From IMG/VR virus record IMGVR_UViG_3300044568_002523: a stretch of DNA of 64,000 bases; one strand, given 5' to 3'. This document shows positions 3,969-62,635 of the stretch, piece after piece. Numbering within the stretch: position 1 is the first letter of the stretch; each line of letters opens with the position of its first letter. The notes below the pieces were generated by a model. The model was not told the origin of the DNA and did no database searches. It was given only the letters and a program-made list of their open reading frames with translations. Source of the stretch: a virus. The position numbers and the translations under genes are program-made.

Positions 3969-5026
3969 GAATTTTTTATTCCATATTCTGTGATTGATTT
4001 CTCAATTAAATCAAATCTTATATTAAAGGCTCCATTAGTTGAACGAAAACTAGAATCTGACCAATTAATTGTTTTAAAAGCCGCCATTACTCTTTCATAA
4101 TCTTTTAAAATTATGATACCATATCCTCTTCTTTGAGGTAAGTCTTCAAAGTTTTCATATAATTTCATATTTTCAACACCAAAACAAGTTGTTGGTAGAT
4201 ATAAATCACATTTGTATAACATTTCTTTATTTCTTGTGGTTCCCGGAGTACCTCCATCCGAAACTGAATATATTTTAATAAAATCAGAACAACTCAATTT
4301 GTCGTTATCTAATTTAAAATTTTTAGACCATATTTGAAAAACAACATTAACAATAACATTACTACCATCAGGGTAGTAAAAATCCGGTTTAATTTTTTCA
4401 GAATGAATTAAATTCATACCTTTTACTCTACCTTTACAACTACCTTTACCATCACTATCAAAAAGTTGAGGAACAATAAACGCGACGAATTCTGAAAATT
4501 GGGATGAATGGTTAATAAACCTTAATGCTAAATTACCTCTTAATCCGAAAGGAGGGTTACCAACAGTAACGTATTTTTTTAATTCAGAAGGGTTCCATTT
4601 TAAAAAATTACCTATTATGATACCTTCTGATTTAGGTTCAATATCTAAACCTATTCGTCTATCTTCCGGTAATTCATTATAAAAACTCCCATCACCTGCT
4701 GATGGCTCAATAAACGTGTATTCAGATTCGTTAACATCTAATTCTTTTAATTTATTATTTAGAACGGATAAACAATAAATCACAGTTTCTTTTGAGGTAA
4801 AAAATTGGTCCTTCTCTTGTACGGAAAATTTGCTATAATCTACATCTACTTCAAGTAAATTACACAAGTCAAAAAAATAATATTTAGGGACATTTTTAAG
4901 TAATAGCCATCTATTTATTGTATTTTTATTTACTTGCATTTCATCAACTAAATGATTGATTCCGTATTTTTCTAGTGACATTAAAAATAAGTCATATATG
5001 TTTTCTATATTGTATTTCATATCCAT
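3965..5026 (-). CDS. N6-adenine DNA methyltransferase, gamma-class (NPPF type)
   Basis: 353 aa. Motif I FIEPSAGDGSF followed by motif IV VGNPPFG. Confidence 0.7.
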   Translation of the reverse strand: MDMKYNIENIYDLFLMSLEKYGINHLVDEMQVNKNTINRWLLLKNVPKYYFFDLCNLLEVDVDYSKFSVQEKDQFFTSKETVIYCLSVLNNKLKELDVNESEYTFIEPSAGDGSFYNELPEDRRIGLDIEPKSEGIIIGNFLKWNPSELKKYVTVGNPPFGLRGNLALRFINHSSQFSEFVAFIVPQLFDSDGKGSCKGRVKGMNLIHSEKIKPDFYYPDGSNVIVNVVFQIWSKNFKLDNDKLSCSDFIKIYSVSDGGTPGTTRNKEMLYKCDLYLPTTCFGVENMKLYENFEDLPQRRGYGIIILKDYERVMAAFKTINWSDSSFRSTNGAFNIRFDLIEKSITEYGIKNS

Positions 5027-5145
5027 AAATATATGTAAAAAACCTTTAAAATCAATATGTTACAGTGTGTTTTGATATATTGATTTTTCTTATTTTTTTC
5101 TATTAAAAATTAAAAGAAAATCTTTTAATAATATTTAAGAGTAAT

Positions 5146-5785: not shown

Positions 5786-6586
5786 ATGAAAGAAAAAAGC
5801 TCAGGTATTCCAATTAATCAAGAAGAGATTAACTTGTATTTAAAAGATATTCGTAAGATTAAAGTAATGACCCCCGAGAGAGAACGAGAACTTTCCAAAA
5901 TGATTAGTTCCGGTACTTTAACACCAAAACAAATTGAAGAGGTGCATCAAGAACTATTGGAGGGTAATTTACGTTTTGTTATTACGGTTGCAAAACAATA
6001 TCAGAATCAAGGTTTGGATTTCCCCGATTTAATTTCTGAAGGTAATTTAGGGTTGATGAAAGCCATTCAAAATTTTGATTGGTCGAAGAACCTTAGATTT
6101 ATTTCCTATGCCGTGTGGTGGGTTAAACAATCCATTCTCCAATCATTGAATGATAATGCTCGAACAATCAGACTACCGGTTAATGTGGTTCAGGATTTAC
6201 ATAGAGCGAAGAAGGCAATCGAATCTAATGGTGGTAAGTTGGAGGATAAGTTCCAAAACCTACCTTCAATGATTGACTTGGATATGAGTATCAACGAAGA
6301 TGGTGATACTCTTGTTGATATTATTAAAAATGACCAAGCGGATATGCCTGACGAGGCGTTTGACACTAAAGATGAATTAAAAAAACAATTAATCTCTTTA
6401 TTAAATGTGTTGGATGAAAGGGAAAAGGTTATCATTGAAGACTATTATGGTCTTACCGGGACACCAAGAACCCTTGAGGATATTGGTAGTGATTTTAATC
6501 TAACAAAGGAACGTGTTAGACAAATCAAAGAGAAAGCCTTACGAAAATTAAGGAACGATAGTTCAGTATTATATGATTATATGTAA
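5786..6586 (+). CDS. sigma-70 family RNA polymerase sigma factor (phage-encoded)
   Basis: 266 aa. Region 2 (LISEGNLGLMKAIQNFDWSKNLRFISYAVWWVKQSI) and region 4 HTH (TLEDIGSDFNLTKERVRQIKEKALRKLR). Confidence 0.8.
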   Translation: MKEKSSGIPINQEEINLYLKDIRKIKVMTPERERELSKMISSGTLTPKQIEEVHQELLEGNLRFVITVAKQYQNQGLDFPDLISEGNLGLMKAIQNFDWSKNLRFISYAVWWVKQSILQSLNDNARTIRLPVNVVQDLHRAKKAIESNGGKLEDKFQNLPSMIDLDMSINEDGDTLVDIIKNDQADMPDEAFDTKDELKKQLISLLNVLDEREKVIIEDYYGLTGTPRTLEDIGSDFNLTKERVRQIKEKALRKLRNDSSVLYDYM

Positions 6587-10727: not shown

Positions 10728-12029
10728 ATGAAAAAATTAAATACAACTTATTTAGATAATTTAGTCTCTAAAGTTTTAAAAGAAACGTTAGAAGAAAAGG
10801 CGGATACTCTTGTTTCCAAAATTAAAGGTGATATGTGTGAACAATGTGGAGGTAATATGAATGAAGACGTTTGTGAACAGTGTGGAAACAGTCGTGGTGA
10901 GATGGAAGAAGATATTCACGATGTTGAAGACATTAACAATAAAAATGAATTTGATTATGTAGAGGAAAGTAATATGTTCGAATACAATCAAGAAGATGTT
11001 GTATCAACTTGTAAAAAACATATTGAATTATTTGGTGAGGATGATGAGGTTACTCAAAAACTTTGTCAAGGTGTTAATCTTAATGAATCATTAAAAGGTC
11101 GTCAAAAAAGATTGGATAAAAATAAAAACAACAAAATTGATTCTGAAGACTTTAAACTTTTACGTAAAGAGAAAAAAAATAAAGATGGTAAGAGTATGAA
11201 GTTTTCTGAAAAATATGGTATGGAAGAACAAGAAACTGAAGAAGGTAATGCTTTTTCAGGTGCTTTATCTAAAGCCAAAAAAGATGGTAAAAATTCTTTT
11301 GAAGTTGATGGTAAAAAATATCCGGTTAAAGAATCTTATCGATTAACTGAAAGTGAAATGATTTCTATGATTGAAAAAATTGTTTTAGAACAGAAAAATA
11401 AAAAAGTTAAAGACCCATCTGAAAAAAATAACATTAAAGGAATGGGTGGTTCTCCAAGAGGTTTAGAAGTTTATAAAAAAGCTCATAATGGTTCAGGTAA
11501 AGAAAATGATGACTATATTAAGTCTGTTACTAAAAAAATGAAAGAATATCTTAAAGATGGTTCTAAAGGTGAATATACTATGAATCCAAAAATATTTCCG
11601 GTTGGTAATGGTGAGTTAGAGAAAATGGACAAAAAGGCTTTTGAAATGACTGATGATTTAGAAGATTTTAATTATGAAATTGCCGGATTAAATTTACCAA
11701 CACCTGATGCTATAGAATTTAATGAAGATTTTATGGAAAAATTATATAAAGGAGATTCAACAACAGGAAACGCTCCGGGTGGAAACGCTTTAGAATCTAA
11801 AGCAAACGATAGATTTAATAAAATTAGAAAGAAAAATACTCTTAAAAAATTAAAAGACCAATCTTACAATAGAGTACCTCAACCGGTTTTTAACGAAAAA
11901 AGTGGTACTGAAAAAGGTAAAGGTGTGAATATTAAATTAGAGTCTGTTGAGGATAAAAAAACAAAACAAATTAATGAAGAGTTTAATAGAATAAAATCTT
12001 TAATGGGTTATAATCAAAGAACTCAATAA
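10728..12029 (+). CDS. hypothetical Lys/Glu-rich protein with N-terminal CxxC…CxxC zinc-ribbon-like motif
   Basis: 433 aa, containing CEQCGGNMNEDVCEQCG. Confidence 0.55.
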   Translation: MKKLNTTYLDNLVSKVLKETLEEKADTLVSKIKGDMCEQCGGNMNEDVCEQCGNSRGEMEEDIHDVEDINNKNEFDYVEESNMFEYNQEDVVSTCKKHIELFGEDDEVTQKLCQGVNLNESLKGRQKRLDKNKNNKIDSEDFKLLRKEKKNKDGKSMKFSEKYGMEEQETEEGNAFSGALSKAKKDGKNSFEVDGKKYPVKESYRLTESEMISMIEKIVLEQKNKKVKDPSEKNNIKGMGGSPRGLEVYKKAHNGSGKENDDYIKSVTKKMKEYLKDGSKGEYTMNPKIFPVGNGELEKMDKKAFEMTDDLEDFNYEIAGLNLPTPDAIEFNEDFMEKLYKGDSTTGNAPGGNALESKANDRFNKIRKKNTLKKLKDQSYNRVPQPVFNEKSGTEKGKGVNIKLESVEDKKTKQINEEFNRIKSLMGYNQRTQ

Positions 12030-12058
12030 TTTACATACAAATAATATAACTTATAATT

Positions 12059-12091
12059 TCTCCATAGACAAACTCTATGGAGAATTTTTTT
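12059..12091 (+). terminator. rho-independent terminator
   Basis: Perfect 10-bp stem TCTCCATAGA/TCTATGGAGA with 5-nt loop, followed by T7. The downstream ORF's ATG lies inside the 3' arm. Confidence 0.7.
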
Positions 12092-15340: not shown

Positions 15341-15363
15341 CCCCCATTAAAGGGGTTTTTTTA
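15340..15363. terminator. bidirectional rho-independent terminator (weak stem)
   Basis: CCCCC-ATTAAA-GGGG followed by T8. Lies between convergent genes. Confidence 0.5.
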
Positions 15364-15636
15364 CGGGATATATTGAAGTAATTCTTTGATTATTTTTATT
15401 GTCCCGTATATTGATGCAAACAATATGTAAAATGATGCGGATAACATAATCCATTGTCCTTTTGTTAGACCTTTTTGTTTACAGGTTTTACATTCTTTCT
15501 CCGGTTGTATTGGTTGTTCCGGGGTAACATCAATAATGTCTTTTTCTTCAATAATTTGTCCTTCAACTTGTTCCATAATAATAATTTTAAAATAAATATA
15601 GTAAAAAAAATTTGAATGTGAAACTTGCTTTTTCAC
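15361..15636 (-). CDS. small membrane protein with CKTCKQ motif
   Basis: 91 aa with a C-terminal TM segment. Confidence 0.45.
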   Translation of the reverse strand: MKKQVSHSNFFYYIYFKIIIMEQVEGQIIEEKDIIDVTPEQPIQPEKECKTCKQKGLTKGQWIMLSASFYILFASIYGTIKIIKELLQYIP

Positions 15637-16625: not shown

Positions 16626-18017
16626 ATGAAGATTACAAAAGTACTATCAAATTTAATAACTGAAGACGCTCGTTTTCAAGTATTGTATAAGAAATATGTT
16701 TTACCTAGTGGTGATAGAAAAAAAGGTATTTTACCTTTTGAGATTGTGAGAGATGTCGTTTTTACTGACCCAACAACGAGACCTCTAGATTATGATGTTG
16801 CAAGTGCGTCTGTTGAAGATATGACTAGTGATAAAATTAAAGTTGGTAAGTATACTCAATGGATGTTAAACAGATTTGTTAAACCACAATTAACTAATGA
16901 AGATGGAGAACCTCTTGAAGTTGGTTCTGAGGAGTACAAAAGAGACGCTACTGAATACAGAAGACACTTTATGGAGGACTTACCTCAATTCAAAGAGTTA
17001 TTGACTAAATACGACAGATTTAAAGGTAGTTTAGCTGACGATTCTAAAAAGAATATAGATAATGTTAAATCATTTACTGAGTTAGCTCAGTTAGATGTTA
17101 AATATGGTGATACAACTGTTGAGTTAGGTGCTTATCGTGGTAAAAAAGTTAAAAAAGACGCAGGAACTGCTGTTAACAAAAACTTTGATATTCCTGGAGC
17201 TGAGATTTTAAAAGTTGGTTCTGAATATACTTTAATTAGAATCTCTGACAAAGGTACTTTAGGTTCTAAAGCGGCGTCTTATTTCGGTGGATATAGTGGT
17301 GGTATTGATAGAGGTGAAACTAACTGGTGTACTGCGGCAGAAAATTCTTCTCACTCACAAACATATAGAAATCAAGGTCCATTATATATCTTTATTGCTA
17401 ATGATGATAAAGGTCAAGTGGGTGAGGTAACAGGTTTACCAACAGAAAGATATCAAATTCACTTCCCAACTGACCAATTTAAAAGTCGTAACCAATATTC
17501 TCGTGATGGTAATATTCCAATCGTTGAATGGTTAAATGGTAAATGGTCTGAATTTAAAGAAATTCTTAAACCTGAATTTGCAAAAGGGTTTGTTAAACCA
17601 AATACTGAAAACGTTGAAATTAAATATCCGGGAACTGCTACAGGTAAGTTTGTTGCGTTATATGGTTTTGATGAATTATTTGAGGTGTTACCTGAATCAA
17701 TCACAAGATTGAATATTCTTAACACATCTAATGAGCGTATTGTTTTAAATATTCCGGATTCAATCACTCGATTCAAATCATTAAAGGCGATATTGTTTGA
17801 AAATGTTATTGATAAAGTTCCGGATTCTATTTGTCAGTTACAAAGTTTAATGATTCTTGCTCTTCCAAACAATCCGGATTTAAAATCTTTACCTGAATGT
17901 ATTATGAATTTACCAAAACTTACATTTGTGAATGTTAATAGAAGTCCAAATGTTAAAGTTCCACAAGCTTTAGAAGCTTTCGCAGAAGGTGCGGGTTTCT
18001 ATCACAAAGAAGAATAA
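16626..18017 (+). CDS. leucine-rich-repeat (LRR) protein with unknown N-terminal domain
   Basis: 463 aa. The C-terminal about 120 aa has LxxLxLxxN-type repeats (LPESITRLNILNTSN…IPDSITRFKSLKAILFENV…VPDSICQLQSLMILALPNNPDLKSLPECIMNLPKLTFVNVN). Confidence 0.6.
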   Translation: MKITKVLSNLITEDARFQVLYKKYVLPSGDRKKGILPFEIVRDVVFTDPTTRPLDYDVASASVEDMTSDKIKVGKYTQWMLNRFVKPQLTNEDGEPLEVGSEEYKRDATEYRRHFMEDLPQFKELLTKYDRFKGSLADDSKKNIDNVKSFTELAQLDVKYGDTTVELGAYRGKKVKKDAGTAVNKNFDIPGAEILKVGSEYTLIRISDKGTLGSKAASYFGGYSGGIDRGETNWCTAAENSSHSQTYRNQGPLYIFIANDDKGQVGEVTGLPTERYQIHFPTDQFKSRNQYSRDGNIPIVEWLNGKWSEFKEILKPEFAKGFVKPNTENVEIKYPGTATGKFVALYGFDELFEVLPESITRLNILNTSNERIVLNIPDSITRFKSLKAILFENVIDKVPDSICQLQSLMILALPNNPDLKSLPECIMNLPKLTFVNVNRSPNVKVPQALEAFAEGAGFYHKEE

Positions 18018-21072: not shown

Positions 21073-21107
21073 TTTAACCCCCAATCTTGGGAGTTTTTAA
21101 TTTATGG

Positions 21108-21116
21108 GATATTTAT
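21108..21116 (+). promoter_or_regulatory. conserved start-proximal motif GATATTTAT (class 2 element)
   Basis: Lies 4 nt upstream of the ATG at 21121. The motif plus about the first 30 coding nt are near-identical to 55609-55650. Confidence 0.5.
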
Positions 21117-21120
21117 TATT

Positions 21121-21642
21121 ATGAAAATAGTAATTAAAGAATCTCAGTATAAATTTTTGGTTGAGCAAACCACACCACCGGCAACTACACCACCGGCAAC
21201 TACACCACCGGCAACTACAACACCGGCAACAGGTCCTAAACCTATGTTTGGTACTCCGGAACAAAGGGCGGCGGCTAAAGCTAAAAGAGAAGGGAACCGC
21301 AAAAAGAGTTTTGATATTTCTGTGGGAAATGCTTACGGAATGGGATTTGTTGAAAAAGTTAGTGATGAGGAGTTCAATAGTGGATGTGAGGTAGATAATA
21401 ACCAAGAATTAAAATATTTAAACAGTACAAGTCCTGAAATACCGAATGTTGTCTATAGAGAAGTTCAAGATGGCACTAAAGTTAAAATCAATATGAAAAA
21501 ATATTTTGCTTATGTTAGAAAACAAAATAAACAAGCTGACGTACCTTTAGATGGGTTACAGGCTCCTAATTTTAAGGCGACAAAATGTGGTGTTTCTAAA
21601 GCGGCTGCTAGTCAATCTAAAAGTGATTGGGCTAAAAAATAA
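21121..21642 (+). CDS. hypothetical protein with MKIVIKE N-terminal motif and (TTPPA)x4 linker
   Basis: 173 aa. The antisense/alternate ORFs are artefacts of the repeat. Confidence 0.55.
   Translation: MKIVIKESQYKFLVEQTTPPATTPPATTPPATTTPATGPKPMFGTPEQRAAAKAKREGNRKKSFDISVGNAYGMGFVEKVSDEEFNSGCEVDNNQELKYLNSTSPEIPNVVYREVQDGTKVKINMKKYFAYVRKQNKQADVPLDGLQAPNFKATKCGVSKAAASQSKSDWAKK
21172..21235 (+). repeat. short tandem repeat (15 nt, caccaccggcaacta) encoding TTPPA x4
   Basis: Direct repeats seen in the sequence. Confidence 0.8.
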
Positions 21643-22590: not shown

Positions 22591-22734
22591 TTACTTTTTG
22601 TAATATTTTTGAACCACCTTACGAATTGACTCTTGAATAGGTTGTGAAGTCGGTTGACTTTGAGTTGTTTGAGTATTCGTTTGTTGTGCTGGTGGTGGAG
22701 TTTGATTTCCTTGATTTTTACATCCGCATCCCAT
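22591..22734 (-). CDS. small Cys/Gln/Thr-rich hypothetical protein (MGCGCKNQ…)
   Basis: 47-aa ORF below the track cutoff. A GATATTTAT motif lies 26 nt upstream on the minus strand. Confidence 0.25.
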   Translation of the reverse strand: MGCGCKNQGNQTPPPAQQTNTQTTQSQPTSQPIQESIRKVVQKYYKK

Positions 22735-22824: not shown

Positions 22825-24189
22825 ATGGGTAGAAAATTAAGACTTACAGAATCCGAATTATATAAAGTAATCAAAAAAATAGTTGAACAAACTGAGGATG
22901 AATATTATAGAATATCACCTGAGGATTACTTAGATATGATGCAATACGCCAGTTATAATGGTAACGTATTTAGAAAAATGAAAAAATATGGTGGAAAACC
23001 ATTATATATTACAGGTGATTTAAATTTAAGTGGTTTACCGGTTAAAGACATTGGACCAATAGGTTATGTTGATGGGACATTATATATTCGTGATACTAAT
23101 ATATCTGATTTGGGTAATTTACAAGTTAAAAACTATATTAGTGACTCTGGCACTCCTCGTGAGAGAATTAGAGACAAACAAGAACTTGATACTAAATTAG
23201 CACAACAAGAATCACTTCGTGATAGTGATGAGTGGGCTTTAGAACAGGGGGATGAGACCGGAGAGAAAGCTCACGCGTTATTTGATAACTTAGTTAATAA
23301 TGGTGAGATTGAACCATTATCGGAGGAGGATATTGAAAAATTAACAATTTTGAGACGTAAACTTCAAGATTTGGAACAAGAGTATGAGGGACTTGATGAT
23401 AATGACGAGAGAGCGTATGAATTACAAGAAACTATTGATGAAACACAAACAGAAATTGAAGAATTAGAAGAGAGTAATGTTGATGTTTATATGATGTATC
23501 CACATCCAAGATATACCCACTATGGTTTAACACAATTTGAGATTTTACTACCGGGATTCAAAAATAATGAATACTCTGTTGGGACTGAAGAAGAAATGGA
23601 TGAGGCGGCATTACAATACGCTAAAAATTATATTGATGATGTGGGAGCAGATGGGTTTAATGAATCATTTATTGAAGATTATTTGGATGTTGATGCAATC
23701 GTTAGTATGGCAGAAGATGATTATGAATATCAAGTTAGAGATTATCCTGATAGTTATTTTAATGATGATGATTTTGAATTAACGGAAGAACAAGAAGAAA
23801 GAATTGCTCAACTTGAATCTCAAATAGAAGATTTAGAACAACAAAAACTTGAATTGGATTCAGATGATGAAAATTATTATGACTATGAAGAAGATTTAGA
23901 TAATCAGATAGAAGCTCTCCAAGAAGAATTAGATAGTATTGAAGTTGATACTGAACCAACCGAAGATATGATTGAGAATAAAGTTGCGGAACTTGTTAGA
24001 GACGTAAGAAGAGACCCATTAGATTATCTTAAAAACTATGGGTTATCTATTAAAGAATATATTGATGAAGATGCTTTAGCTCAAGGGTTAGTTGACTCTG
24101 ATGGTTGGGGTGTTATGAATGGATATGACGGTCAATATGATAGTGAAGAAGTTAATGGTATTACGTATTATATAATGAGGATTCAATAA
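22825..24189 (+). CDS. hypothetical highly acidic coiled-coil protein with N-terminal LRR-like segment
   Basis: 454 aa with long D/E-rich heptad regions. Confidence 0.6.
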   Translation: MGRKLRLTESELYKVIKKIVEQTEDEYYRISPEDYLDMMQYASYNGNVFRKMKKYGGKPLYITGDLNLSGLPVKDIGPIGYVDGTLYIRDTNISDLGNLQVKNYISDSGTPRERIRDKQELDTKLAQQESLRDSDEWALEQGDETGEKAHALFDNLVNNGEIEPLSEEDIEKLTILRRKLQDLEQEYEGLDDNDERAYELQETIDETQTEIEELEESNVDVYMMYPHPRYTHYGLTQFEILLPGFKNNEYSVGTEEEMDEAALQYAKNYIDDVGADGFNESFIEDYLDVDAIVSMAEDDYEYQVRDYPDSYFNDDDFELTEEQEERIAQLESQIEDLEQQKLELDSDDENYYDYEEDLDNQIEALQEELDSIEVDTEPTEDMIENKVAELVRDVRRDPLDYLKNYGLSIKEYIDEDALAQGLVDSDGWGVMNGYDGQYDSEEVNGITYYIMRIQ

Positions 24190-26478: not shown

Positions 26479-27336
26479 ATGATAGAAACAGGAAAGATTA
26501 TAAATGGTGATTGTGTTGAGGTAATGAAAAGTTTACCTGAAGGTTGTATCGATATGGTGGTTACTAGTCCCCCATATTCTGCGGGGATTAAATATGATGT
26601 GTATGATGATAATACACCAATGGATGAATATTGGGAATTTACTAAAAAATGGTTGTCAGGTGTTTACAGAGTATTAAAAGATGACGGAAGAGTTGCTATT
26701 AATGTTCCAATAGAAATGAACGTTCAAGAAAGAGGTGGAAGAATATTATTTAACGCAGAGTTTTGGATGGTGATGAAAGAAGTTGGATTCAAATTTTTTG
26801 GGATGATTGATTTGACTGAGGATTCTCCCCATCGAGTTAGACAAACAGCTTGGGGTAGTTGGATGAGTAATAGTCAGCCTTACATTTATAATCCAAAAGA
26901 GTGTGTGATATTGGCTTATAAAAATTCACCTAAGAAATTAACCAAAGGGGAATCTCAGTGGATGGGAACTCCAACCGAAATTACTGATGAAAATGGTAAA
27001 GTCAGAACCAAAATGGTTTATAAAGATGAAGACAAGAAAGAGTTTATGAACTTGGTGTTTGGACGATGGGAATACTTTGCTGATACTAAATCATTAACAA
27101 AGGCCACATTCTCTATGGACATCCCGGTTAAAGCCATCAAGATATTATCATATAAGAACGATATAGTTCTTGACCCATTTATGGGAAGTGGAACATCAGC
27201 GGTTGCTGCTGAAACATTAGGGAGACGATGGTTGGGAATTGAGTTATCACCAAACTATACCGATATAGCAAGAAAACGAGTGAATGCGTTTATTGAGGAC
27301 CGGAAACAATTAGAGTTAGAATTAAAAGAGGTGTAA
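26479..27336 (+). CDS. DNA methyltransferase, N4/N6 beta-class (pfam N6_N4_Mtase-like)
   Basis: Motif IV first (VVTSPPYS) and then motif I (VLDPFMGSGTSAVAA), which is the beta-class order. Confidence 0.8.
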   Translation: MIETGKIINGDCVEVMKSLPEGCIDMVVTSPPYSAGIKYDVYDDNTPMDEYWEFTKKWLSGVYRVLKDDGRVAINVPIEMNVQERGGRILFNAEFWMVMKEVGFKFFGMIDLTEDSPHRVRQTAWGSWMSNSQPYIYNPKECVILAYKNSPKKLTKGESQWMGTPTEITDENGKVRTKMVYKDEDKKEFMNLVFGRWEYFADTKSLTKATFSMDIPVKAIKILSYKNDIVLDPFMGSGTSAVAAETLGRRWLGIELSPNYTDIARKRVNAFIEDRKQLELELKEV

Positions 27337-27352
27337 CATCCTCTTTTTTTAT
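27327..27352 (+). terminator. rho-independent terminator
   Basis: AAGAGG…CCTCTT stem followed by T7. Confidence 0.6.
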
Positions 27353-27358
27353 TTCCCG

Positions 27359-27370
27359 GATATTTATAAA
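27359..27370 (+). promoter_or_regulatory. GATATTTATAAATAAAA element (class 2, extended; contains TATAAATA)
   Basis: The 17-mer is identical to the one at 32074-32090. The ATG at 27384 lies 16 nt downstream. Confidence 0.45.
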
Positions 27371-27383
27371 TAAAAATACAATT

Positions 27384-27752
27384 ATGGCAAAAAGATTTAT
27401 AATTTCAGAAGAAGAAAGAAGTGACATTCGTTCAAGATATGGGTTAGTTAATGAACAAGATAACTATGAAAATCATACCTTTATTAAAGGTATCCAACGA
27501 TTTTTAAATGAAAAAATTAGAGCGGGGTTAAAAGTTGACGGGTTGTCTGATAATAATTTAAAATCTGAAACCGCAAAAGCAATTGCAAAATATCAATCAA
27601 AAATAGGTGTTTATCCTACCGATGGTGTTTGGGGAAAAAAGACTTGGTCTAAAATGTCACCAAAAGATAAACAAAGATGTGAAGATTTAGTTGCTGAAGA
27701 AGGTGGTATTATTGATGAATTTATCAATTGGATGGGTAAAATGTTTAGTTAA
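27384..27752 (+). CDS. peptidoglycan-binding domain protein (PG_binding_1-like)
   Basis: LKVDGLSDNNLKSETAKAIAKYQSKIGVYPTDGVWGKKTW matches the PG-binding repeat. Confidence 0.55.
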   Translation: MAKRFIISEEERSDIRSRYGLVNEQDNYENHTFIKGIQRFLNEKIRAGLKVDGLSDNNLKSETAKAIAKYQSKIGVYPTDGVWGKKTWSKMSPKDKQRCEDLVAEEGGIIDEFINWMGKMFS

Positions 27753-31984: not shown

Positions 31985-32039
31985 TTCTCACAAAACAGGA
32001 TGGTGGAGTCGCCGACATTTCAGTCGGCCCTAAAATTAA

Positions 32040-32065
32040 CCCTCACATAAAGTGGGGGTTTTTTG
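32040..32065 (+). terminator. rho-independent terminator (preceded by a second hairpin at 32009-32029)
   Basis: CCCTCAC-ATAAA-GTGGGGG (one G-U pair) followed by T6. Confidence 0.7.
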
Positions 32066-32073: not shown

Positions 32074-32086
32074 GATATTTATAAAT
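32074..32086 (+). promoter_or_regulatory. GATATTTATAAATAAAA element (class 2, extended)
   Basis: Same 17-mer as at 27359. The ATG at 32096 lies 13 nt downstream. Confidence 0.45.
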
Positions 32087-32095
32087 AAAATATGT

Positions 32096-32416
32096 ATGAA
32101 GGATATTATATTAACAGAAAAACAACTTGAAAAGTTGGTTACCAAAATGAAAACCATTAAAGAAGGTGAAGGTAGTGGTTCATATATGGCTCGGCAACAG
32201 TTATACGTAATTGCTAAGATGGCTGAAAAAATGTGGGAGAAGATGGAAGAAAACGAATCAGAAACTTTGGACGATTGGATGGAAAGTAAAATAGCTCAAG
32301 CGGAACAAAGTATTTCATCAGTAGTTAAAGCATATATGTATGACGAATTGAAAGACGATAAAGAGATTGGTGGGATGAATAAACTAGGGTTTGACGACCT
32401 GATAATAGGAAAATAA
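32096..32416 (+). CDS. hypothetical protein with MKDIILTE N-terminal motif (start refined)
   Basis: The track ORF starts inside the promoter element. The internal ATG at 32096 gives the family-type N-terminus. Confidence 0.5.
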   Translation: MKDIILTEKQLEKLVTKMKTIKEGEGSGSYMARQQLYVIAKMAEKMWEKMEENESETLDDWMESKIAQAEQSISSVVKAYMYDELKDDKEIGGMNKLGFDDLIIGK

Positions 32417-33963: not shown

Positions 33964-33991
33964 GTTTATATGAAATAAAGTATTATCTTTG
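33961..33991 (+). promoter_or_regulatory. Bacteroidetes-type promoter (TTTG-N19-TATCTTTG), possibly producing a leaderless mRNA
   Basis: The -7 box ends at 33991 and the ATG is at 33996. Confidence 0.55.
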
Positions 33992-33995
33992 TACT

Positions 33996-34331
33996 ATGAA
34001 TCCATATCCTAAAAGATTACAGTTACTTATTAAAGAAGTTTATAAGGAGTTCCCCCAAATGAGGAGGCACCCGCAATACCGGTTCTTTTATTTACATTAT
34101 GGATATCCTGAGGTTAGGGAGTATTTTTTTGTTTTAACCGAGAATATTCCGGAATCAGAAAATGATACATTTTTGAGTTTTGTTAATACTACAGCAAGAA
34201 CTTTTGGGTTTATTGAGGGGGTGCTTATGAAACCGAATCATTTTGAAAAATTTATTATGAAACCTATAACTGAAAGTATAAATGAATTACGTGGTAGTGA
34301 GTTCAAAACTTTTGGATATGAGGTGTGGTAA
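33996..34331 (+). CDS. hypothetical protein
   Basis: 111-aa ORF. An alternative start is the internal Met at 34059. Confidence 0.45.
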   Translation: MNPYPKRLQLLIKEVYKEFPQMRRHPQYRFFYLHYGYPEVREYFFVLTENIPESENDTFLSFVNTTARTFGFIEGVLMKPNHFEKFIMKPITESINELRGSEFKTFGYEVW

Positions 34332-36020: not shown

Positions 36021-36720
36021 AGAAACGTATCTTAAAGTCCAATGGGACGTTAACATTTTCTTCGTAGTTTTGTTCTAAATTTAAATAAATTTCTGAATCT
36101 TTTGGGCTAAATATAAAACTACCTTGACCACCTTCATTGTTATACCAATCTACATTAGTTTCTTCTAACCATTTATATAACATATCTTCGATAAGTGTTG
36201 GAATATTTTCCGAAGACCCGTTGATATACATATCGCTATCTAAAGCCCCACTATCACCACCACCTTGAAATCTTGCTTCACCTTCACCATTTTCACCAAT
36301 TTGTTCAAATAATCTTAAAACTTCATTATATGTTACTTCATCGTAATCTTCTGAAATTTCTTCTAAAGTTTTTGAGAAATCAAATCCGTTACTTTCAAAT
36401 ACCCACTGAGTTGCGGTTACTGTCAATGTTCTGTCAATACAATCAATTTCAATCTCTAATTGTCCTCTAAGCTCACAATCTGTGGTGGCATTTTCAATTA
36501 ATTCATTAGTTTCAAGTATTTCTTTTAAAACTTCATCAATTTTTTCATAAGTTTCGATTGCTATACTTGTTTCGGGTGAACGAAAATAATCATCTTCATA
36601 TTCAATCTCACAATATTCTATATAATAATCTTTAGTTGCCGTTTCAGCTCCATATGAGTTTAGATAAAGAGCGAATAGTTTTAATGATTTTAATTGTTCT
36701 TCAGTAACTTGTGGTTGCAT
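36019..36720 (-). CDS. hypothetical acidic protein
   Basis: 233-aa ORF. Confidence 0.55.
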   Translation of the reverse strand: MQPQVTEEQLKSLKLFALYLNSYGAETATKDYYIEYCEIEYEDDYFRSPETSIAIETYEKIDEVLKEILETNELIENATTDCELRGQLEIEIDCIDRTLTVTATQWVFESNGFDFSKTLEEISEDYDEVTYNEVLRLFEQIGENGEGEARFQGGGDSGALDSDMYINGSSENIPTLIEDMLYKWLEETNVDWYNNEGGQGSFIFSPKDSEIYLNLEQNYEENVNVPLDFKIRF

Positions 36721-36743
36721 AATTCTTTTTTATTATAAATATG

Positions 36744-37687: not shown

Positions 37688-37811
37688 TTAATAGTTTTTC
37701 AATCAATCTTGATTTATTAGTTAATTCATCCTCCATCCGTTTATTTATTTCCGGATTCAGGGTAATAGTTATTTTAACTTTTTTGTCTTCTTCTTTTAAT
37801 GTTGGTCTCAT
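37659..37811 (-). CDS. ribbon-helix-helix (CopG/Arc-like) small DNA-binding protein
   Basis: MRPTLKEEDKKVKITITLNPEINKRMEDELTNKSRLIEKLL, from the internal Met of the track ORF (the upstream part is AT-rich junk). It is the first gene of the minus-strand island. Confidence 0.45.
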   Translation of the reverse strand: MRPTLKEEDKKVKITITLNPEINKRMEDELTNKSRLIEKLLIEYYGKKNL

Positions 37812-37868
37812 ATATATAAATATATGGTAAATATGGAAAGTGTGGTATAAACTAAATATTTTTTTGAT

Positions 37869-37876
37869 ATATTTAT
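37869..37876 (+). promoter_or_regulatory. ATATTTAT class 2 element
   Basis: Lies 4 nt upstream of the ATG at 37881. Confidence 0.45.
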
Positions 37877-37880
37877 TAAT

Positions 37881-38414
37881 ATGAAAATAATCATTACAGA
37901 ATCTTTTTATAAGAACACCATATTCAAATTTTTTACTAAGTTTGGTGGTGAAATTGATAATCAATTTATAGATATGTTTAGATTGGATAGTAATAATTCA
38001 ATTTTAACTTATGACGAAGCTTACAAATATCTTATTGAGTGGAGAGGTATTGAAGAATCTAAAACCCTTGCAAATACCATATTACTTCAGAATCCCCATC
38101 ATATAGATGAGTATGGTGGATACGATTTCTTTTTTGAGGTGACTGATATTAAAAAGTGGGGTCTTAATGATGATGAACCATTTGTTACCGTTAAAGTTAA
38201 AGTTGATGATTTAGCGGGTAGTGTTGATATAGGTGGTGACCATAAAACATTAGAGGACGCTTTAGACAATGAAGATTACGGATGGGAAGTTGGTGACGAG
38301 GTTATTTGGGGTATCAACAATTATTTCAAGAAAAAAATAACATCAAAAACCGGGATTAAAGTAATATTCTTTAGACCTGAATATAGTAGTCGAACTTTTA
38401 ATTTTAAAACATAA
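37881..38414 (+). CDS. hypothetical protein with MKIIITE N-terminal motif
   Basis: 177-aa ORF. Confidence 0.5.
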   Translation: MKIIITESFYKNTIFKFFTKFGGEIDNQFIDMFRLDSNNSILTYDEAYKYLIEWRGIEESKTLANTILLQNPHHIDEYGGYDFFFEVTDIKKWGLNDDEPFVTVKVKVDDLAGSVDIGGDHKTLEDALDNEDYGWEVGDEVIWGINNYFKKKITSKTGIKVIFFRPEYSSRTFNFKT

Positions 38415-39810: not shown

Positions 39811-40466
39811 GTTAAACCATTTCCGAATTGGTCAAAGTATCCAATAACTGCGTTTGAATACATATATGTGCTATCATACATATTTTTATTGTCAATTATT
39901 TCTGTTATAATGTGCCAAACAGCGTCTAACTCCTGTTCTTGAGACGATTCATTATAAATAAAATTCTTAATAAATTCATCAAGAGTGTCGTCATCAACCT
40001 CTTCATCATTAATTTTTGGATTGGTTAGTTCCAAAGATAAATAAAAATTAAACATTTCAGAGTCTTCATAACCAATGTCCCAATTCAAGACATAACATTC
40101 CGAATTAAGTTTTTCTTCATCATGTAATTCAATTGATGTAAAATCACTACACTTGTCGTTAATTTTCTGTCTTAATTCTTGGTTTATGTAAAAGTATCTT
40201 ACATTACCTACTCTACAAAATTTTTCATAAATGTTTGAGCCCCACATTGGGTTGTCTTTGGTTCCAGTCATTACCATAAAATTATGAAACATTTCCTCAA
40301 GGTGTCCATCAACAACAAAATTACTATAGGATAAATCATTAGGGTTTTCAATTTCCCATTCAATATAGTCATCCGATTTAAGTTGGGCGTGTAATATTAA
40401 TCCATTAACATTAACCGGTGGGTTAAGGTCTTTAAGAAATAGTCGTAATAATTTATTTTTGTTCAT
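39807..40466 (-). CDS. hypothetical protein
   Basis: 219-aa minus-strand ORF. Confidence 0.55.
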   Translation of the reverse strand: MNKNKLLRLFLKDLNPPVNVNGLILHAQLKSDDYIEWEIENPNDLSYSNFVVDGHLEEMFHNFMVMTGTKDNPMWGSNIYEKFCRVGNVRYFYINQELRQKINDKCSDFTSIELHDEEKLNSECYVLNWDIGYEDSEMFNFYLSLELTNPKINDEEVDDDTLDEFIKNFIYNESSQEQELDAVWHIITEIIDNKNMYDSTYMYSNAVIGYFDQFGNGLT

Positions 40467-40508
40467 AACAATAAATATGTATATTTATATAAATAGTGAA
40501 TAAATAAT

Positions 40509-41882: not shown

Positions 41883-41890
41883 ATATTTAT
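41883..41890 (+). promoter_or_regulatory. ATATTTAT class 2 element
   Basis: Lies 4 nt upstream of the ATG at 41895. Confidence 0.45.
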
Positions 41891-41894
41891 AAAT

Positions 41895-42419
41895 ATGAGA
41901 ATTATAGTTAAAGAAGTCCAAAATTTAAAATTAATTGAACAGGAAGAGGAAGTTGACACAACTCCAAACTTTAATAAACTAATTTATCTTCCTGCGGAGA
42001 AAGTAATGATTGGGGCTTATATGATTGTTGGTGATACCGGTAAGATGATTGATGTGTTAAACATTCACGAACAATTGGATAATGTTGGTTTGTTTATGGA
42101 TGGTGCGGAATCATATAACATCTATATTTATTTTTCAAAATTACCAAAATCACAAATAGAAATATTAGGTCCGGTTGAAGGTAAAGAAGGTTTTGTGTAT
42201 ATTAAAATACCTTATTGGTTATATAAGAAAATGTCTACAGAATTATCTATCAGACGATATCCAAAGTTAAAAAGATTATCAATTGCTAGAAGTCAGGTAA
42301 ATGATTACTTTCTTAAGTTAATTAACAATCCGGATGTTGAAAGATATTTTAATATAATTGATACGGATGATGTTAGTCAACAAAGATTCAAAAGGTATCA
42401 AAGACATTACAAACCTTAA
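41895..42419 (+). CDS. hypothetical protein with MRIIVKE N-terminal motif
   Basis: 174-aa ORF. Confidence 0.5.
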   Translation: MRIIVKEVQNLKLIEQEEEVDTTPNFNKLIYLPAEKVMIGAYMIVGDTGKMIDVLNIHEQLDNVGLFMDGAESYNIYIYFSKLPKSQIEILGPVEGKEGFVYIKIPYWLYKKMSTELSIRRYPKLKRLSIARSQVNDYFLKLINNPDVERYFNIIDTDDVSQQRFKRYQRHYKP

Positions 42420-42907
42420 AGGATTTTAAAGTTGTCATCAATTGAGTCGTCATTAGTTTCTGAGTCATAAGTGTCCGTATCAATCAAGTTACCATCCCAA
42501 TAAGAATAATCACCTTCGGAACCCATTCCGTAAATATAGTTATATATATCACCTTTGTCTGTTCCATAAGTTTCAACTTGATGTCTATAAGTTAGTTTAA
42601 CCCACTGAGTTTCCCACGCATACCAATCAAATTCTACTTTTTTAAATGTTGGTCTATCAAGATTTCCGGTTAATCTATCTTCTTCAAACAAATCTTCATT
42701 CAATTTCCAAACATTATAAATGTAATCACAATCAATTGCACTATCACCACCTTTAACTCCAATAGTTGATTCTGCTTCTTCAACACCATCTCTTAACATA
42801 TAATTTTGAGATGAGTCCAACGTATTAAAATCAACTTCTTCCATTACAATTTTAATAAACCTGAATAAGGTTTTGTTGGGGATAGATTCGAATATACTTG
42901 CACTCAT
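42416..42907 (-). CDS. hypothetical acidic protein
   Basis: 163-aa ORF. Confidence 0.5.
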   Translation of the reverse strand: MSASIFESIPNKTLFRFIKIVMEEVDFNTLDSSQNYMLRDGVEEAESTIGVKGGDSAIDCDYIYNVWKLNEDLFEEDRLTGNLDRPTFKKVEFDWYAWETQWVKLTYRHQVETYGTDKGDIYNYIYGMGSEGDYSYWDGNLIDTDTYDSETNDDSIDDNFKIL

Positions 42908-42955
42908 AAAACTTTTTTATTATAAATATGACAGATTAAAAAAAAATGTCTATAT

Positions 42956-46948: not shown

Positions 46949-46957
46949 GATATTTAT
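46949..46957 (+). promoter_or_regulatory. GATATTTAT class 2 element
   Basis: Lies 6 nt upstream of the ATG at 46964. Confidence 0.45.
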
Positions 46958-46963
46958 ATAGGT

Positions 46964-58366: not shown

Positions 58367-58375
58367 GATATTTAT
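58367..58375 (+). promoter_or_regulatory. GATATTTAT class 2 element
   Basis: Lies 4 nt upstream of the ATG at 58380. Confidence 0.45.
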
Positions 58376-58379
58376 CACT

Positions 58380-58787
58380 ATGGATATACAGGAAAACATA
58401 TATAGAATTAAACAATTAATGACTGAAGGTAAGGACGCTTACGTTGAAAGAGCTCGTTATGACCAAGAGTATGAGGAAGAATATCCAAAATGGAAAAAAT
58501 CTATAATTAAGCTTTTAGAGATGGAAATAGATTCAATGGCGGAAATTAACAATGGTAAAATAATAGTTTTACTTAATGGGAAAAACCTTGACAAAAATTT
58601 AATGAAATATGATAAAATAAATGAAAGATTATGGTATGATTATTCCTTACAAGAAAATTTGGAAGGGTATATACCATACGGTTATTTATCAAGACATTTT
58701 AAATACGCGGTTCAGGACTTCTTCAAAAAACATTTCCCGAATTATGGTGTTAGAGAACTAACGGCTGCGAGTTTAGTAAGTTACTAA
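58380..58787 (+). CDS. hypothetical protein with MDIQENIYRIKQLM N-terminal motif
   Basis: 135-aa ORF. Confidence 0.5.
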   Translation: MDIQENIYRIKQLMTEGKDAYVERARYDQEYEEEYPKWKKSIIKLLEMEIDSMAEINNGKIIVLLNGKNLDKNLMKYDKINERLWYDYSLQENLEGYIPYGYLSRHFKYAVQDFFKKHFPNYGVRELTAASLVSY

Positions 58788-61852: not shown

Positions 61853-61860
61853 ATATTTAT
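61853..61860 (+). promoter_or_regulatory. ATATTTAT class 2 element
   Basis: Lies 4 nt upstream of the ATG at 61865. Confidence 0.45.
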
Positions 61861-61864
61861 AGTT

Positions 61865-62635
61865 ATGAACTTAAATGAAGATATACAAAGAATAAGACAA
61901 ATTATGATTTCTGAGGAGATGGTTCAATCAGATGCGTGGAAATCAATCAAGAAAACATTAGATATTCTTAAAAAGAAAAAGAAAGTTTTAATCTTAAGTT
62001 GTTCCAATAGATATAATTGGGATGAAAAAAACCTTGACATACCAAAATCAAAAATGATTGCAATGTATCTTAACGATGAGTTAAAAGACTCAGTGTTAAT
62101 TGATGTCTCTGAACTTAATATAGTTCCTTGTGAGGGGAATGTATCAAGAAAAGACGGGAACAGTTGTGGATTACTTAAAGCAATGCTCAAAGATAAGAAA
62201 AAGAATCCATCCGGGGACCATAGATGTTGGGCAAGTTTCAACAACCCAAAGGATGAGTTATGGAAGATATCCAAAGAGTTATTTGAGTCAGACGCGGTTA
62301 TATTCTTTAGTTCAATTAGATGGGGACAAACCAATATGTTCTATCAGAATTTAATTGAGAGATTGACTTGGATTGAGAACAGACACGCAACCTTGGGGGA
62401 ATCAAATATTGTTAAAGACATTGAGACCGGATTCATTTGTGTTGGGCAGAATTGGAATGGTGAGAACGTAACTGAAATACAAAAGAAAGTTCACGAGTTT
62501 TATGGATTCAAACCAAACGATGATTTATATTGGAATTGGCAATATACAAAAAATGTTAATGATGAAACTCAAAAATCATATAAAGCTTCTCATAACAAAT
62601 TTATAAAAGATACTAAATTACCTGAGGATAAATAA
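61865..62635 (+). CDS. flavodoxin-like fold protein (NAD(P)H-dependent FMN reductase-like), tentative; MNLNEDIQRIRQIM N-terminus
   Basis: KKVLILSCSNRYNW and DAVIFFSSIRWGQTNMFYQNLIERL resemble the flavodoxin_2/FMN_red layout. Confidence 0.4.
   Translation: MNLNEDIQRIRQIMISEEMVQSDAWKSIKKTLDILKKKKKVLILSCSNRYNWDEKNLDIPKSKMIAMYLNDELKDSVLIDVSELNIVPCEGNVSRKDGNSCGLLKAMLKDKKKNPSGDHRCWASFNNPKDELWKISKELFESDAVIFFSSIRWGQTNMFYQNLIERLTWIENRHATLGESNIVKDIETGFICVGQNWNGENVTEIQKKVHEFYGFKPNDDLYWNWQYTKNVNDETQKSYKASHNKFIKDTKLPEDK

What the first reader, a model, noticed from the sequence alone, without database searches (positions are those of the whole stretch)
21097..21145. Conserved start-proximal DNA element (G)ATATTTAT-N3/4-ATG (plus GATATTTATAAATAAAA variant) marks a co-regulated gene class
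Instances, giving motif then ATG position: 21108 then 21121, 22812 then 22825, 37869 then 37881, 41883 then 41895, 46949 then 46964, 53315 then 53327, 55609 then 55621, 58367 then 58380, 61853 then 61865. The extended form GATATTTATAAATAAAA (containing the T4-late-like TATAAATA) is at 27359 and 32074. A minus-strand copy near 22760 lies 26 nt upstream of a small ORF and, with the copy at 22812, forms a divergent pair, which argues for a promoter or operator and against a pure translation signal. At 21097 and 55597 the conservation extends from about 12 nt upstream to about 30 nt into the coding sequence. The gene set carrying this element largely coincides with the N-terminal-motif family. It does not coincide with the TTTG/TATCTTTG host-type promoters, which suggests a distinct temporal class. 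That class may be read by the phage-encoded sigma factor at 5786-6586, or the element may be a leaderless or short-leader initiation signal.
Basis: seen in the sequence. Interest (0 to 1): 0.7.

Follow-up and report, generated by a model that had tools for sequence, protein, structure and literature searches.

The report
Phage promoter box abutting start codons
A conserved 7-base DNA box (TATTTAT) in an uncultivated giant phage of Bacteroidota is most likely the core of a phage-specific promoter, and in a dozen genes it sits exactly 4 bases before the ATG, so the messenger RNA would start at the start codon with no leader, which is rare in the host phylum.

Summary
TATTTAT-N4-ATG occurs 12 times in the window against about 1 expected, and every copy sits at the start of an ORF. 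The conserved core is TATTTAT, not GATATTTAT. It stays fixed in orthologues down to 44% protein identity while the flanks diverge.

The element is not tied to the ATG. A second class lies 13-17 nt upstream (TATTTAT-AATAAAAAA). Orthologues of gene 37881 carry the box 28 nt upstream instead of 4.

Copies are oriented towards genes and are 16-fold denser in co-directional gaps than in coding DNA. They are nearly absent from convergent gaps. Several sit directly after terminators or in 31-69 nt divergent gaps. They are missing from operon-internal genes that share the same N-terminal motif.

Noncoding copies share T at +4 and A at +5 after the box, which fits a transcription start at that A.

Best reading: a -35-less, phage-specific promoter. 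At N4 spacing it would give leaderless mRNAs.

No transcript data exist, so the start site, the timing and the reading factor are all inferred. The link to the phage sigma is weakened by a third, sigma-70-like promoter class that fits that sigma better.

Verdict: a new variant of a known kind, of moderate interest.

The parts
21110..21123 (+). TATTTAT-N4-ATG, gene 21121-21642; directly after terminator hairpin 21076-21095
   Evidence: conserved in L016 and L009
22814..22827 (+). TATTTAT-N4-ATG, gene 22825-24189; degenerate host-like box TATCTTCG 4 nt upstream
   Evidence: box and N4 spacing invariant in about 25 orthologous loci at 44-88% protein identity
22732..22768 (-). TATTTAT 27 nt upstream of the 47-aa ORF 22591-22734; divergent partner of 22814
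   Evidence: ATAAATATC conserved in all relatives
37870..37883 (+). TATTTAT-N4-ATG, gene 37881-38414, in a 69-nt divergent gap
   Evidence: orthologues L049-L060 carry the box 28 nt upstream instead
37809..37822 (-). TATTTAT-N4-ATG, gene 37659-37811; divergent partner of 37870
41884..41897 (+). TATTTAT-N4-ATG, gene 41895-42419, in a 31-nt divergent gap; part of the palindrome ATATTTATAAATAT
   Evidence: conserved in L056 and L038
53316..53329 (+). TATTTAT-N4-ATG, gene 53327-53701; last unit of a 3 x 40-nt tandem repeat
   Evidence: orthologue in L037
55610..55623 (+). TATTTAT-N4-ATG, first gene of operon 55621-57834; 13 nt after terminator stem 55572-55596
58369..58382 (+). TATTTAT-N4-ATG, gene 58380-58787, in a 48-nt divergent gap shared with a host-type leaderless box (58343, minus strand)
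61854..61867 (+). TATTTAT-N4-ATG, gene 61865-62635; the box starts 8 nt after terminator stem 61825-61846
5018..5031 (-). TATTTAT-N4-ATG at the second ATG of ORF 3965-5026 (start 5020)
40464..40477 (-). TATTTAT-N4-ATG, gene 39807-40466, in a 42-nt divergent gap
   Evidence: conserved in L052, L053, L056, L057 and L059
52943..52956 (-). TATTTAT-N4-ATG, gene 52367-52945
46951..46966 (+). TATTTAT-N6-ATG, gene 46964-48568, after terminator 46914-46938; purine at +5
   Evidence: N6 spacing kept in L033-L039
10707..10730 (+). Class 2: TATTTAT-AATAAAAAA, 14 nt to the ATG of 10728-12029
   Evidence: conserved in L040-L048
16602..16628 (+). Class 2: TATTTAT-AATAAAAAA, 17 nt to the ATG of 16626-18017; a host-type promoter lies further upstream at 16542
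27361..27386 (+). Class 2: TATTTAT-AAATAAAA, 16 nt to the ATG of 27384-27752, after terminator 27324-27347
32076..32098 (+). Class 2: TATTTAT-AAATAAAA, 13 nt to the ATG at 32096, after terminator 32038-32060
36718..36741 (-). Class 2: TATTTAT-AATAAAAAA, 14 nt to the ATG of 36019-36720
42905..42928 (-). Class 2: TATTTAT-AATAAAAAA, 14 nt to the ATG of 42416-42907
15574..15598 (-). Class 2: TATTTAT, 15 nt to the ATG of 15361-15576
5786..6586 (+). Phage RpoD-like sigma factor (regions 1.2, 2, 4). Candidate reader of the box, unproven. It lies in an operon behind host-type promoter 5146-5177.

Best explanation
TATTTAT is the core, -10-like element of a promoter class specific to this family of giant Bacteroidota phages. 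It has no -33/-35 partner. Transcription most likely starts at the conserved A five bases after the box (aTATTTAT-N-R-N-T-A).

Where that A is the A of ATG (12 genes in this window), the mRNA is leaderless. Two N6 copies would give a 2-nt leader. Where an A-run follows the box, the mRNA has a 9-13 nt A-rich leader. A few copies give leaders of about 16-47 nt.

What is shown: enrichment, orientation, gene-upstream location, conservation across relatives, and independence from ATG distance.

What is inferred: that the box is a promoter, the exact start site, leaderless translation, and the reading factor. The factor could be the host RNA polymerase core with a phage-encoded specificity factor, possibly the RpoD-like sigma at 5786-6586.
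For: 1. Non-random and start-linked.
- There are 12 copies of TATTTATNNNNATG against 0.98 expected, all at ORF starts.
- The class-2 pattern occurs 8 times against 0.87 expected.

2. Phylogenetic footprint.
- TATTTAT and its spacing are invariant in orthologues of 22825 (44-88% identity) and of 46964, while the flanks and the N4 bases change.

3. Not tied to the ATG.
- In 250 kb of relatives the box-to-ATG distance is bimodal: 4 nt (16 cases) and 13-16 nt (43 cases).
- Orthologues of 37881, with the same MKxIITES N-terminus, carry the box 28 nt upstream.

4. Promoter-like distribution.
- Sense-oriented density is 4.4 per kb in co-directional gaps against 0.28 per kb in coding DNA.
- Convergent gaps hold one copy in all, and most divergent gaps hold at least one.
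- Copies start 8-15 nt after terminator stems at 27347, 32060, 46938, 55596 and 61846. That leaves no room for another promoter.
- Divergent gaps of 31, 42 and 69 nt carry one box per gene.
- Operon-internal genes 55952-57526 lack the box, although they have the same N-terminal motif.

5. Start-site signature.
- T at -1 in 12 of 12 N4 copies, against a 55% background.
- Noncoding copies have A at +5 in 75%, against 24% for coding copies, whatever the ATG distance.

6. The same logic holds for other promoter classes in the window.
- Host-type boxes TAnnTTTG lie 4 nt before the ATG at 33984, 53743 and 58343(-). The host start site lies 4-5 nt after the box (PMC6847099).
- TTGACA-N17-TATTAT lies 6 nt before the ATG at 59230.

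7. Precedents.
- Thermus phage phiYS40 makes most of its middle/late mRNAs leaderless (review PMC3594737).
- In Deinococcus a -10 motif 6-7 bp before ORFs drives leaderless genes (PMC12340547).
Against: - There is no transcript 5'-end or expression data for this phage, so the start site is inferred.
- The box fits neither known sigma geometry. It has A where the host -7 box has a near-invariant T-7, and it lacks G-5. The A and T that could match A-11 and T-7 of a sigma-70 -10 element are one base too far apart.
- With host-like geometry (TA taken as -12/-11) the predicted start falls one base inside the ATG.
- An RpoD-like sigma with an intact region 4.2 would be expected to use a -35 element. 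None is conserved.
- Leaderless mRNAs are rare in the host phylum: 5.5% in F. psychrophilum and about 3.7% with leaders under 10 nt in B. thetaiotaomicron.
- Gene functions behind the box do not define a temporal class.
Confidence: 0.6

Rival explanations
1. RNA-level signal. TATTTAT is transcribed as UAUUUAU within a short 5' UTR. There it acts as a translation enhancer for the Shine-Dalgarno-less Bacteroidota ribosome, as the operator of a phage translational repressor (in the manner of T4 RegA), or as an endoribonuclease processing site.
For: - Spacing to the AUG is strictly fixed in 12 genes.
- The sequence is AU-rich and lies in the region where Bacteroidota initiation is tuned by sequence, not by a Shine-Dalgarno element (PMC6847099).
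- In 22814, 53316 and the relatives L010, L013 and L020, a host-like -7 box sits 4-5 nt upstream. A host-driven transcript would therefore begin at the box.
Against: - The distance to the AUG varies: 4, 6, 13-17 and 20-51 nt. It switches between 4 and 28 nt in orthologues.
- Most copies have no upstream promoter. Many start 8-15 nt after a terminator stem.
- The box is absent from operon-internal genes, which also need translation initiation.
- The T(-1)/A(+1)-type signature and the frequent G at -3 are not the A-rich pattern reported for host translation.
Confidence: 0.12
2. Degenerate host promoter. The element is only a weak variant of the Bacteroidota primary-sigma -7 box (TAnnTTTG, read here as [T/G]ATATTTA). 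It would be read by unmodified host holoenzyme and would not form a separate class.
For: - In this window 7 of 12 N4 copies read TATATTTA, which matches 5 of the 6 near-invariant host positions. The 5-nt gap to the ATG is within the host's 4-5 nt rule.
- A weak T-rich tract 13-17 nt upstream resembles the AT-rich tract near -28 of F. johnsoniae promoters.
Against: - In distant orthologues the two bases before TATTTAT are GG, AG, CA or AA. The would-be T-12/A-11 are therefore not conserved, while TATTTAT is invariant.
- The G-5 equivalent is always A and never drifts to G.
- There is no -33 TTTG (7 found against 3.3 expected, mostly not at promoters). The true host-type pattern is strongly enriched (17 against 3.3).
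- None of the six sigma motifs mapped in F. psychrophilum resembles the box.
Confidence: 0.12
3. Protein-binding operator or recombination cassette. The box is the binding site of a phage DNA-binding regulator. Alternatively it is the conserved core of a mobile terminator-promoter cassette that spreads by recombination, and the start-codon spacing is inherited instead of functional.
For: - Palindromic TATTTATAAATA occurs at 27361, 32076 and 41884.
- About 55 nt are shared between 21073-21150 and 55569-55650, although the proteins are not detectable paralogues.
- L009 carries a tandem duplicate of the box.
Against: - Most copies are single, asymmetric and strictly oriented towards the gene.
- Flanks are unrelated among most copies.
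- Spacing is maintained by selection in orthologues while neighbouring bases change.
Confidence: 0.06

Closest known systems
Leaderless middle/late transcripts of Thermus thermophilus phage phiYS40 (Sevostyanova et al. 2007, as summarised in PMC3594737)
   Same: A large lytic phage in which a phage-specific promoter class abuts the start codon, so that many non-early mRNAs lack a leader.
   Different: The host phylum is different, and Deinococcota use leaderless mRNAs commonly. The consensus is different. For phiYS40 the start sites were mapped experimentally; here nothing is mapped. From memory, phiYS40 is not known to carry an RpoD-like sigma.
Deinococcus-Thermus '-10 motif adjacent to ORF' (TANNNT 6-7 bp before the ATG; PMC12340547)
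   Same: A -10-type element alone, at a fixed short distance from the ATG, acts as a promoter for leaderless genes. A -35 element is dispensable.
   Different: That is a cellular system read by the primary sigma. The hexamer is TANNNT with 6-7 bp spacing. Here the element is the 7-mer TATTTAT with 4 bp spacing, and it does not fit TANNNT.
T4 late promoters (TATAAATA, read by gp55 with gp33 and the sliding clamp; from general knowledge)
   Same: A short AT-only box near -10 with no -35 element, present many times in a large phage genome and distinct from host promoters.
   Different: The sequence differs: TATTTAT against TATAAATA. TATAAATA appears in only three copies, through a palindromic extension. 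T4 late mRNAs are leadered. No gp55-like protein was seen in the window.
Bacteroidota primary-sigma promoter (-33 TTTG / -7 TAnnTTTG; PMC6847099, PMC9723704)
   Same: Both begin with TA and are T-rich. The phage also carries many true copies of this type (17 against 3.3 expected), three of them 4 nt from an ATG.
   Different: The box has A at the T-7 position, no G-5 and no -33 partner. Its register to the ATG is offset by one base.
PeSL regulatory cassettes of T4-type phages (terminator stem-loop plus promoter; from memory, Arbiol et al. 2010)
   Same: A terminator hairpin is followed at once by a promoter at gene boundaries. One pair of copies (21073-21150 and 55569-55650) shares the whole module.
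   Different: PeSLs carry early sigma-70 promoters and are defined by their role in modular shuffling. That role was not tested here.

Membership tests
Bacteroidota primary-sigma promoter (-33/-7) | -7 box with near-invariant T-12, A-11, T-8, T-7, T-6, G-5 | tested here: not met
   With TA of TATTTAT as -12/-11, position -7 is A and -5 is variable. With the alternative register ([T/G]ATATTTA), the -12/-11 bases are not conserved in orthologues.
Bacteroidota primary-sigma promoter (-33/-7) | -33 TTTG about 19 nt upstream of the -7 box | tested here: not met
   TTTG-N16-22-TATTTAT occurs 7 times against 3.3 expected, and only two of those are at candidate promoters. No conserved column appears in the logo.
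Bacteroidota primary-sigma promoter (-33/-7) | Transcription start 4-5 nt after the box | not testable with these tools
   No transcript data. The conserved A lies 5 nt after the box.
Sigma-70-type -35/-10 promoter | TTGACA-like hexamer 17 +/- 1 bp upstream of a TATAAT-like hexamer with A-11 and T-7 | tested here: not met
   No -35-like conservation. TATTTAT cannot place A at -11 and T at -7 together. Sigma-70-like sites are not enriched overall, though a few separate ones are conserved.
T4-type late promoter | TATAAATA box | tested here: not met
   The core is TATTTAT. TATAAATA is present only at 27361, 32076 and 41884, as a palindromic extension.
T4-type late promoter | No -35 element | tested here: met
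T4-type late promoter | Read by a gp55-type minimal sigma with co-activators | tested here: inconclusive
   The only sigma-domain protein among 107 window ORFs is the RpoD-like one. The other roughly 240 kb of the genome were not available.
Promoters for leaderless mRNA (-10 element abutting the ORF) | Promoter element at a fixed short distance from the start codon | tested here: met
   N4 in 12 of 12 copies. The spacing is kept in orthologues.
Promoters for leaderless mRNA (-10 element abutting the ORF) | Start codon is AUG | tested here: met
   12 of 12 in the window and all orthologues inspected. The search pattern itself required ATG.
Promoters for leaderless mRNA (-10 element abutting the ORF) | The primary 5' end coincides with the A of AUG, and the mRNA is translated | not testable with these tools
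   Needs 5'-end mapping and ribosome binding or reporter assays.
Translational operator or enhancer in the 5' UTR (RegA-like) | Constant position relative to the start codon on the mRNA, present wherever the regulated gene is translated | tested here: not met
   Distances are 4, 6, 13-17 and 20-51 nt. The same gene has 4 or 28 nt in different phages. The box is absent from operon-internal family members.

The most novel reading that the evidence does not exclude
The box is read by a so far unrecognised phage factor, not by the RpoD-like sigma, which would instead serve the few TTGACT/TATAAT promoters. This factor would place the transcription start exactly on the AUG. About a third of this phage's transcription units would then make leaderless mRNAs, in a phylum whose ribosomes ignore Shine-Dalgarno sequences and rarely see such mRNAs. 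That would amount to a phage-wide programme that separates phage translation from host translation.
Probability: 0.15. Interest if true: 0.7.

Novelty: new variant of a known kind. Interest (0 to 1): 0.45.

Why it matters
This phage family is abundant in metagenomes. Its sigma gene alone falls into more than 100 clusters at 90% identity, and contigs reach 270-320 kb. It has no cultured relative in the phage collection.

A defined promoter consensus, together with the host-type and sigma-70-like classes, gives a first regulatory map for the family. It improves start-codon calls (for example 5020 and 32096). It also yields compact promoter parts for Bacteroidota, where standard genetic tools fail.

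If the N4 genes are truly leaderless, the phage would be a natural system for studying leaderless translation on ribosomes that do not use Shine-Dalgarno pairing.

Tried and rejected
- Chance or composition. Rejected by shuffles and by permutation controls.
- GATATTTAT as the unit. Rejected, because distant orthologues keep only [A/G]TATTTAT.
- Conservation running into the coding sequence as part of the DNA element. Rejected as a general feature. Orthologues vary at synonymous sites, so the N-terminal motif is a protein-level feature. Only the pair 21121/55621 shares extra DNA.
- A -35 or -33 partner. None was found.
- A link to one paralogous family. All-against-all BLAST shows that the N4 genes are mostly unrelated proteins.
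- A temporal class inferred from function. PHROGs and Pfam gave mostly no hits or non-structural functions.
- A known RNA family or tRNA in the long gaps. None was found.
- A near relative among isolated phages. None by DNA, and only 32-39% identity for the sigma.
- Literature searches for TATTTAT as a phage promoter, or for promoter motifs of Bacteroidota jumbo phages, found nothing relevant.
- The phiYS40 primary paper is not held, so it is cited through a review.

Full report
**What the window is.** The window has 30% G+C and is densely coding, mostly on the + strand.
- It has no DNA match among 50,697 phage records.
- IMG/VR holds many related contigs of 270-320 kb whose proteins are 44-90% identical. 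The window therefore comes from an uncultivated family of giant phages.
- The full Bacteroidota promoter pattern TTTG-N18-21-TAnnTTTG occurs 17 times against 3.3 expected. This points to a Bacteroidota host.
- Window genes are accessory types: thioredoxin, glutaredoxin, DNA methylases, NUDIX, DnaJ, ferritin-like, an epimerase, a glycosyltransferase and one sigma factor. There are no structural genes and no RNA polymerase subunits.

- ATATTTAT is moderately enriched: 35 copies against 20 +/- 4.
- TATTTATNNNNATG is strongly enriched: 12 copies against 0.98 +/- 1.13. Each copy opens an ORF of at least 45 aa.
- None of the other 20 permutations of the 7-mer gives more than 2 such cases.

**The core is TATTTAT.**
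- In about 25 orthologous loci of gene 22825 (44-88% identity), TATTTAT is invariant and the N4 spacing is kept. The same holds in 7 loci of gene 46964, which keep that gene's N6 spacing.
- The flanks, the spacer bases and even the two bases before the box change: GA, TA, GG, AG, CA, AA. Searches show the same for five further genes.
- The coding sequence downstream varies at synonymous sites. The shared N-terminal residues are therefore a protein-level feature and not part of the DNA element.

**The box is not tied to the start codon.**
- The window contains a second class, TATTTAT-AATAAAAAA or -AAATAAAA, 13-17 nt before the ATG (8 matches to TATTTATNRNWAAA against 0.87 expected). It also contains copies 20-51 nt upstream.
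- In 250 kb of related loci the distance from the box to the next gene start is bimodal: 4 nt (16 cases, plus 6 at 6 nt) and 13-16 nt (43 cases).
- Most tellingly, orthologues of gene 37881 have the same MKxIITES N-terminus in eight relatives, yet carry the box 28 nt upstream instead of 4.
- A signal that keeps its sequence while its distance to the AUG changes is unlikely to act in translation initiation.

**The distribution is that of a promoter.**
- Sense-oriented copies reach 4.4 per kb in co-directional intergenic gaps against 0.28 per kb in coding DNA.
- Convergent gaps hold one copy in all. Most divergent gaps hold at least one, oriented outward.
- At 27361, 32076, 46951, 55610 and 61854 the box begins 8-15 nt after a terminator stem, inside or just after its T-run. 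No other promoter could fit between terminator and gene.
- Divergent gaps of only 31, 42 and 69 nt carry one box per gene.
- Genes 55952-57526 share the N-terminal motif but lie inside an operon with overlapping stops and starts. They have no box.

**A common start-site signature.**
- All 12 N4 copies have T at -1, against a 55% background. Eleven of 12 have a purine at -3.
- Across all 40 noncoding copies, whatever the ATG distance, the base five positions after the box is A in 75%, against 24% for the 29 coding copies. The base before the box is A in 70% against 24%.
- In class 2 the A-run starts at that same position.
- The simplest model is aTATTTAT-N-R-N-T-A(+1). N4 genes would be leaderless and N6 genes would have a 2-nt leader. 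Class 2 genes would have a 9-13 nt A-rich leader.
- No -35 or -33 element is conserved. There is only a weak T-rich tract 13-17 nt upstream.

**The same design occurs in other promoter classes of this phage.**
- In F. johnsoniae the -7 box spans T-12 to G-5 and the start site lies 4-5 nt after it (PMC6847099).
- Three host-type boxes here lie exactly 4 nt before an ATG (33984, 53743, 58343 minus). The spacing at 33984 is kept in relatives while the four bases change.
- A sigma-70-like TTGACA-N17-TATTAT lies 6 nt before the ATG of 59265.
- About 16 genes in 64 kb are therefore predicted to be leaderless. Reported host values are 5.5% in F. psychrophilum and about 3.7% with leaders under 10 nt in B. 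thetaiotaomicron.

**Who reads the box is open.**
- The sigma at 5786-6586 has regions 1.2, 2 and 4 and scores as RpoD/RpoS-like. It is 85-95% identical across more than 100 clusters. It lies behind a host-type promoter (5146-5177).
- However, its region 4.2 (KERVRQIKEKALRKLR) looks canonical from my memory of E. coli sigma-70, and the box has no -35 partner.
- I also found a small third class of promoters: TTGACT-N17-TATAAT before 34388 and TTTACA-N16-TATAAT before 12077. Their hexamers are conserved and their spacers vary among relatives. Host Bacteroidota sigma does not use such promoters, so they are a natural target for this sigma.
- My estimates: about 40% that the window's sigma reads TATTTAT, about 30% that another phage factor does, and the remainder for host sigma with or without modification.

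**Timing.** Genes behind the box include a family-2 glycosyltransferase, a metallophosphoesterase, a ferritin-like protein and a peptidoglycan-binding protein, plus many proteins with no matches. The only structural hint is a weak PHROG match of the 22825 protein to a head maturation protease (E 2.4e-5). 'Late' is therefore not justified. 'Non-host class' is as far as the data go.

**Rivals.**
- An RNA-level signal is disfavoured by the variable distance, the terminator adjacency and the absence from internal genes.
- A degenerate host box is disfavoured because the bases that would be T-12/A-11 are not conserved, G-5 never appears, and -33 is missing.
- An operator or mobile cassette explains a few palindromic or duplicated copies but not the oriented single copies.

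**Comparison with known systems.**
- By mechanism, the closest known systems are the leaderless middle/late transcripts of Thermus phage phiYS40 and the Deinococcus-Thermus '-10 motif next to the ORF'.
- By form, the closest is the -35-less T4 late promoter.
- The box is not a member of the host -7/-33 family, the sigma-70 family or the TATAAATA family, because defining features were tested and not met.

**Verdict.** The finding is real and conserved. It is best read as a new promoter consensus used in a known way: a promoter abutting the ORF that gives leaderless mRNA. The host phylum and phage family are ones where this has not been described in the literature I could search. All functional steps remain inferences until 5' ends are mapped.

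Noticed in passing
window 34333-34361, 12030-12057, 59230-59267: A third, sigma-70-like promoter class: TTGACT-N17-TATAAT, TTTACA-N16-TATAAT and TTGACA-N17-TATTAT-N6-ATG. For the first two, the hexamers are conserved and the spacers vary in relatives. They are a plausible target of the RpoD-like phage sigma in a host whose own sigma does not read such promoters.
   Followed up: partly
window 33984-33998, 53743-53757, 58329-58343 (minus): Host-type -7 boxes (TAnnTTTG) lie exactly 4 nt before an ATG, which predicts leaderless mRNAs from host-type promoters. The spacing at 33984 is kept in L052, L054 and L059.
   Followed up: partly
window 53201-53320: Three tandem 40-nt repeats (GAGAGTAAAAAAnTG...TTACCTTCGTTTTATTTTG). 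The last one runs into the TATTTAT box of gene 53327, and the middle unit forms a hairpin followed by a T-run.
   Followed up: no
window 52977-53190: Host-type promoter (52977-53008), then a 37-aa lysine-rich ORF (53051-53164), then a terminator (53169-53190). The unit sits in a 381-nt gap that a 50-aa ORF cut-off leaves unannotated.
   Followed up: no
window 12058-12084: A perfect 10-bp inverted repeat, TTCTCCATAG-N7-CTATGGAGAA, covers the start codon of gene 12077 and is conserved in L040-L045. It could be an operator or a start-codon-sequestering hairpin.
   Followed up: no
window, N-termini of 21121, 22825, 26175, 32096, 37881, 41895, 53327, 55621, 56892, 57200, 57526: [LIV]x[LIV]xE lies within the first 10 or so residues in 11 of 107 proteins, against 2% of internal windows. 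A related M(D/N)(I/L)xE(N/D)IxRI form occurs at 58380, 61865 and 63382. From memory it resembles the L/I-x-E site of the T4 prohead protease and the short capsid-targeting peptides of T4 internal proteins. This was not tested.
   Followed up: partly
window 21073-21150 and 55569-55650: About 55 nt are shared (terminator tail, box, first 9 codons), although BLAST does not detect the two proteins as paralogues. This looks like a transferable terminator-promoter-N-terminus module.
   Followed up: partly
window 5786-6586: The sigma factor is 85-95% identical across more than 100 protein clusters from many metagenomes. It is far more conserved than its neighbours (44-90%).
   Followed up: partly
window 21163-21230: An in-frame tandem repeat encodes (T)TPPAT units near the N-terminus of protein 21121.
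   Followed up: no
L009 about 482-520: A relative carries a tandem duplication of the box (TATTTATgagaTATTTATtagtATG) before the orthologue of 21121.
   Followed up: no
window 41864-41894: A 31-nt divergent gap holds the palindrome ATATTTATAAATAT. The + strand box serves 41895. On the minus strand a host-type box (TATATTTG) lies 14 nt before the ATG of 41863. The two promoters overlap.
   Followed up: no
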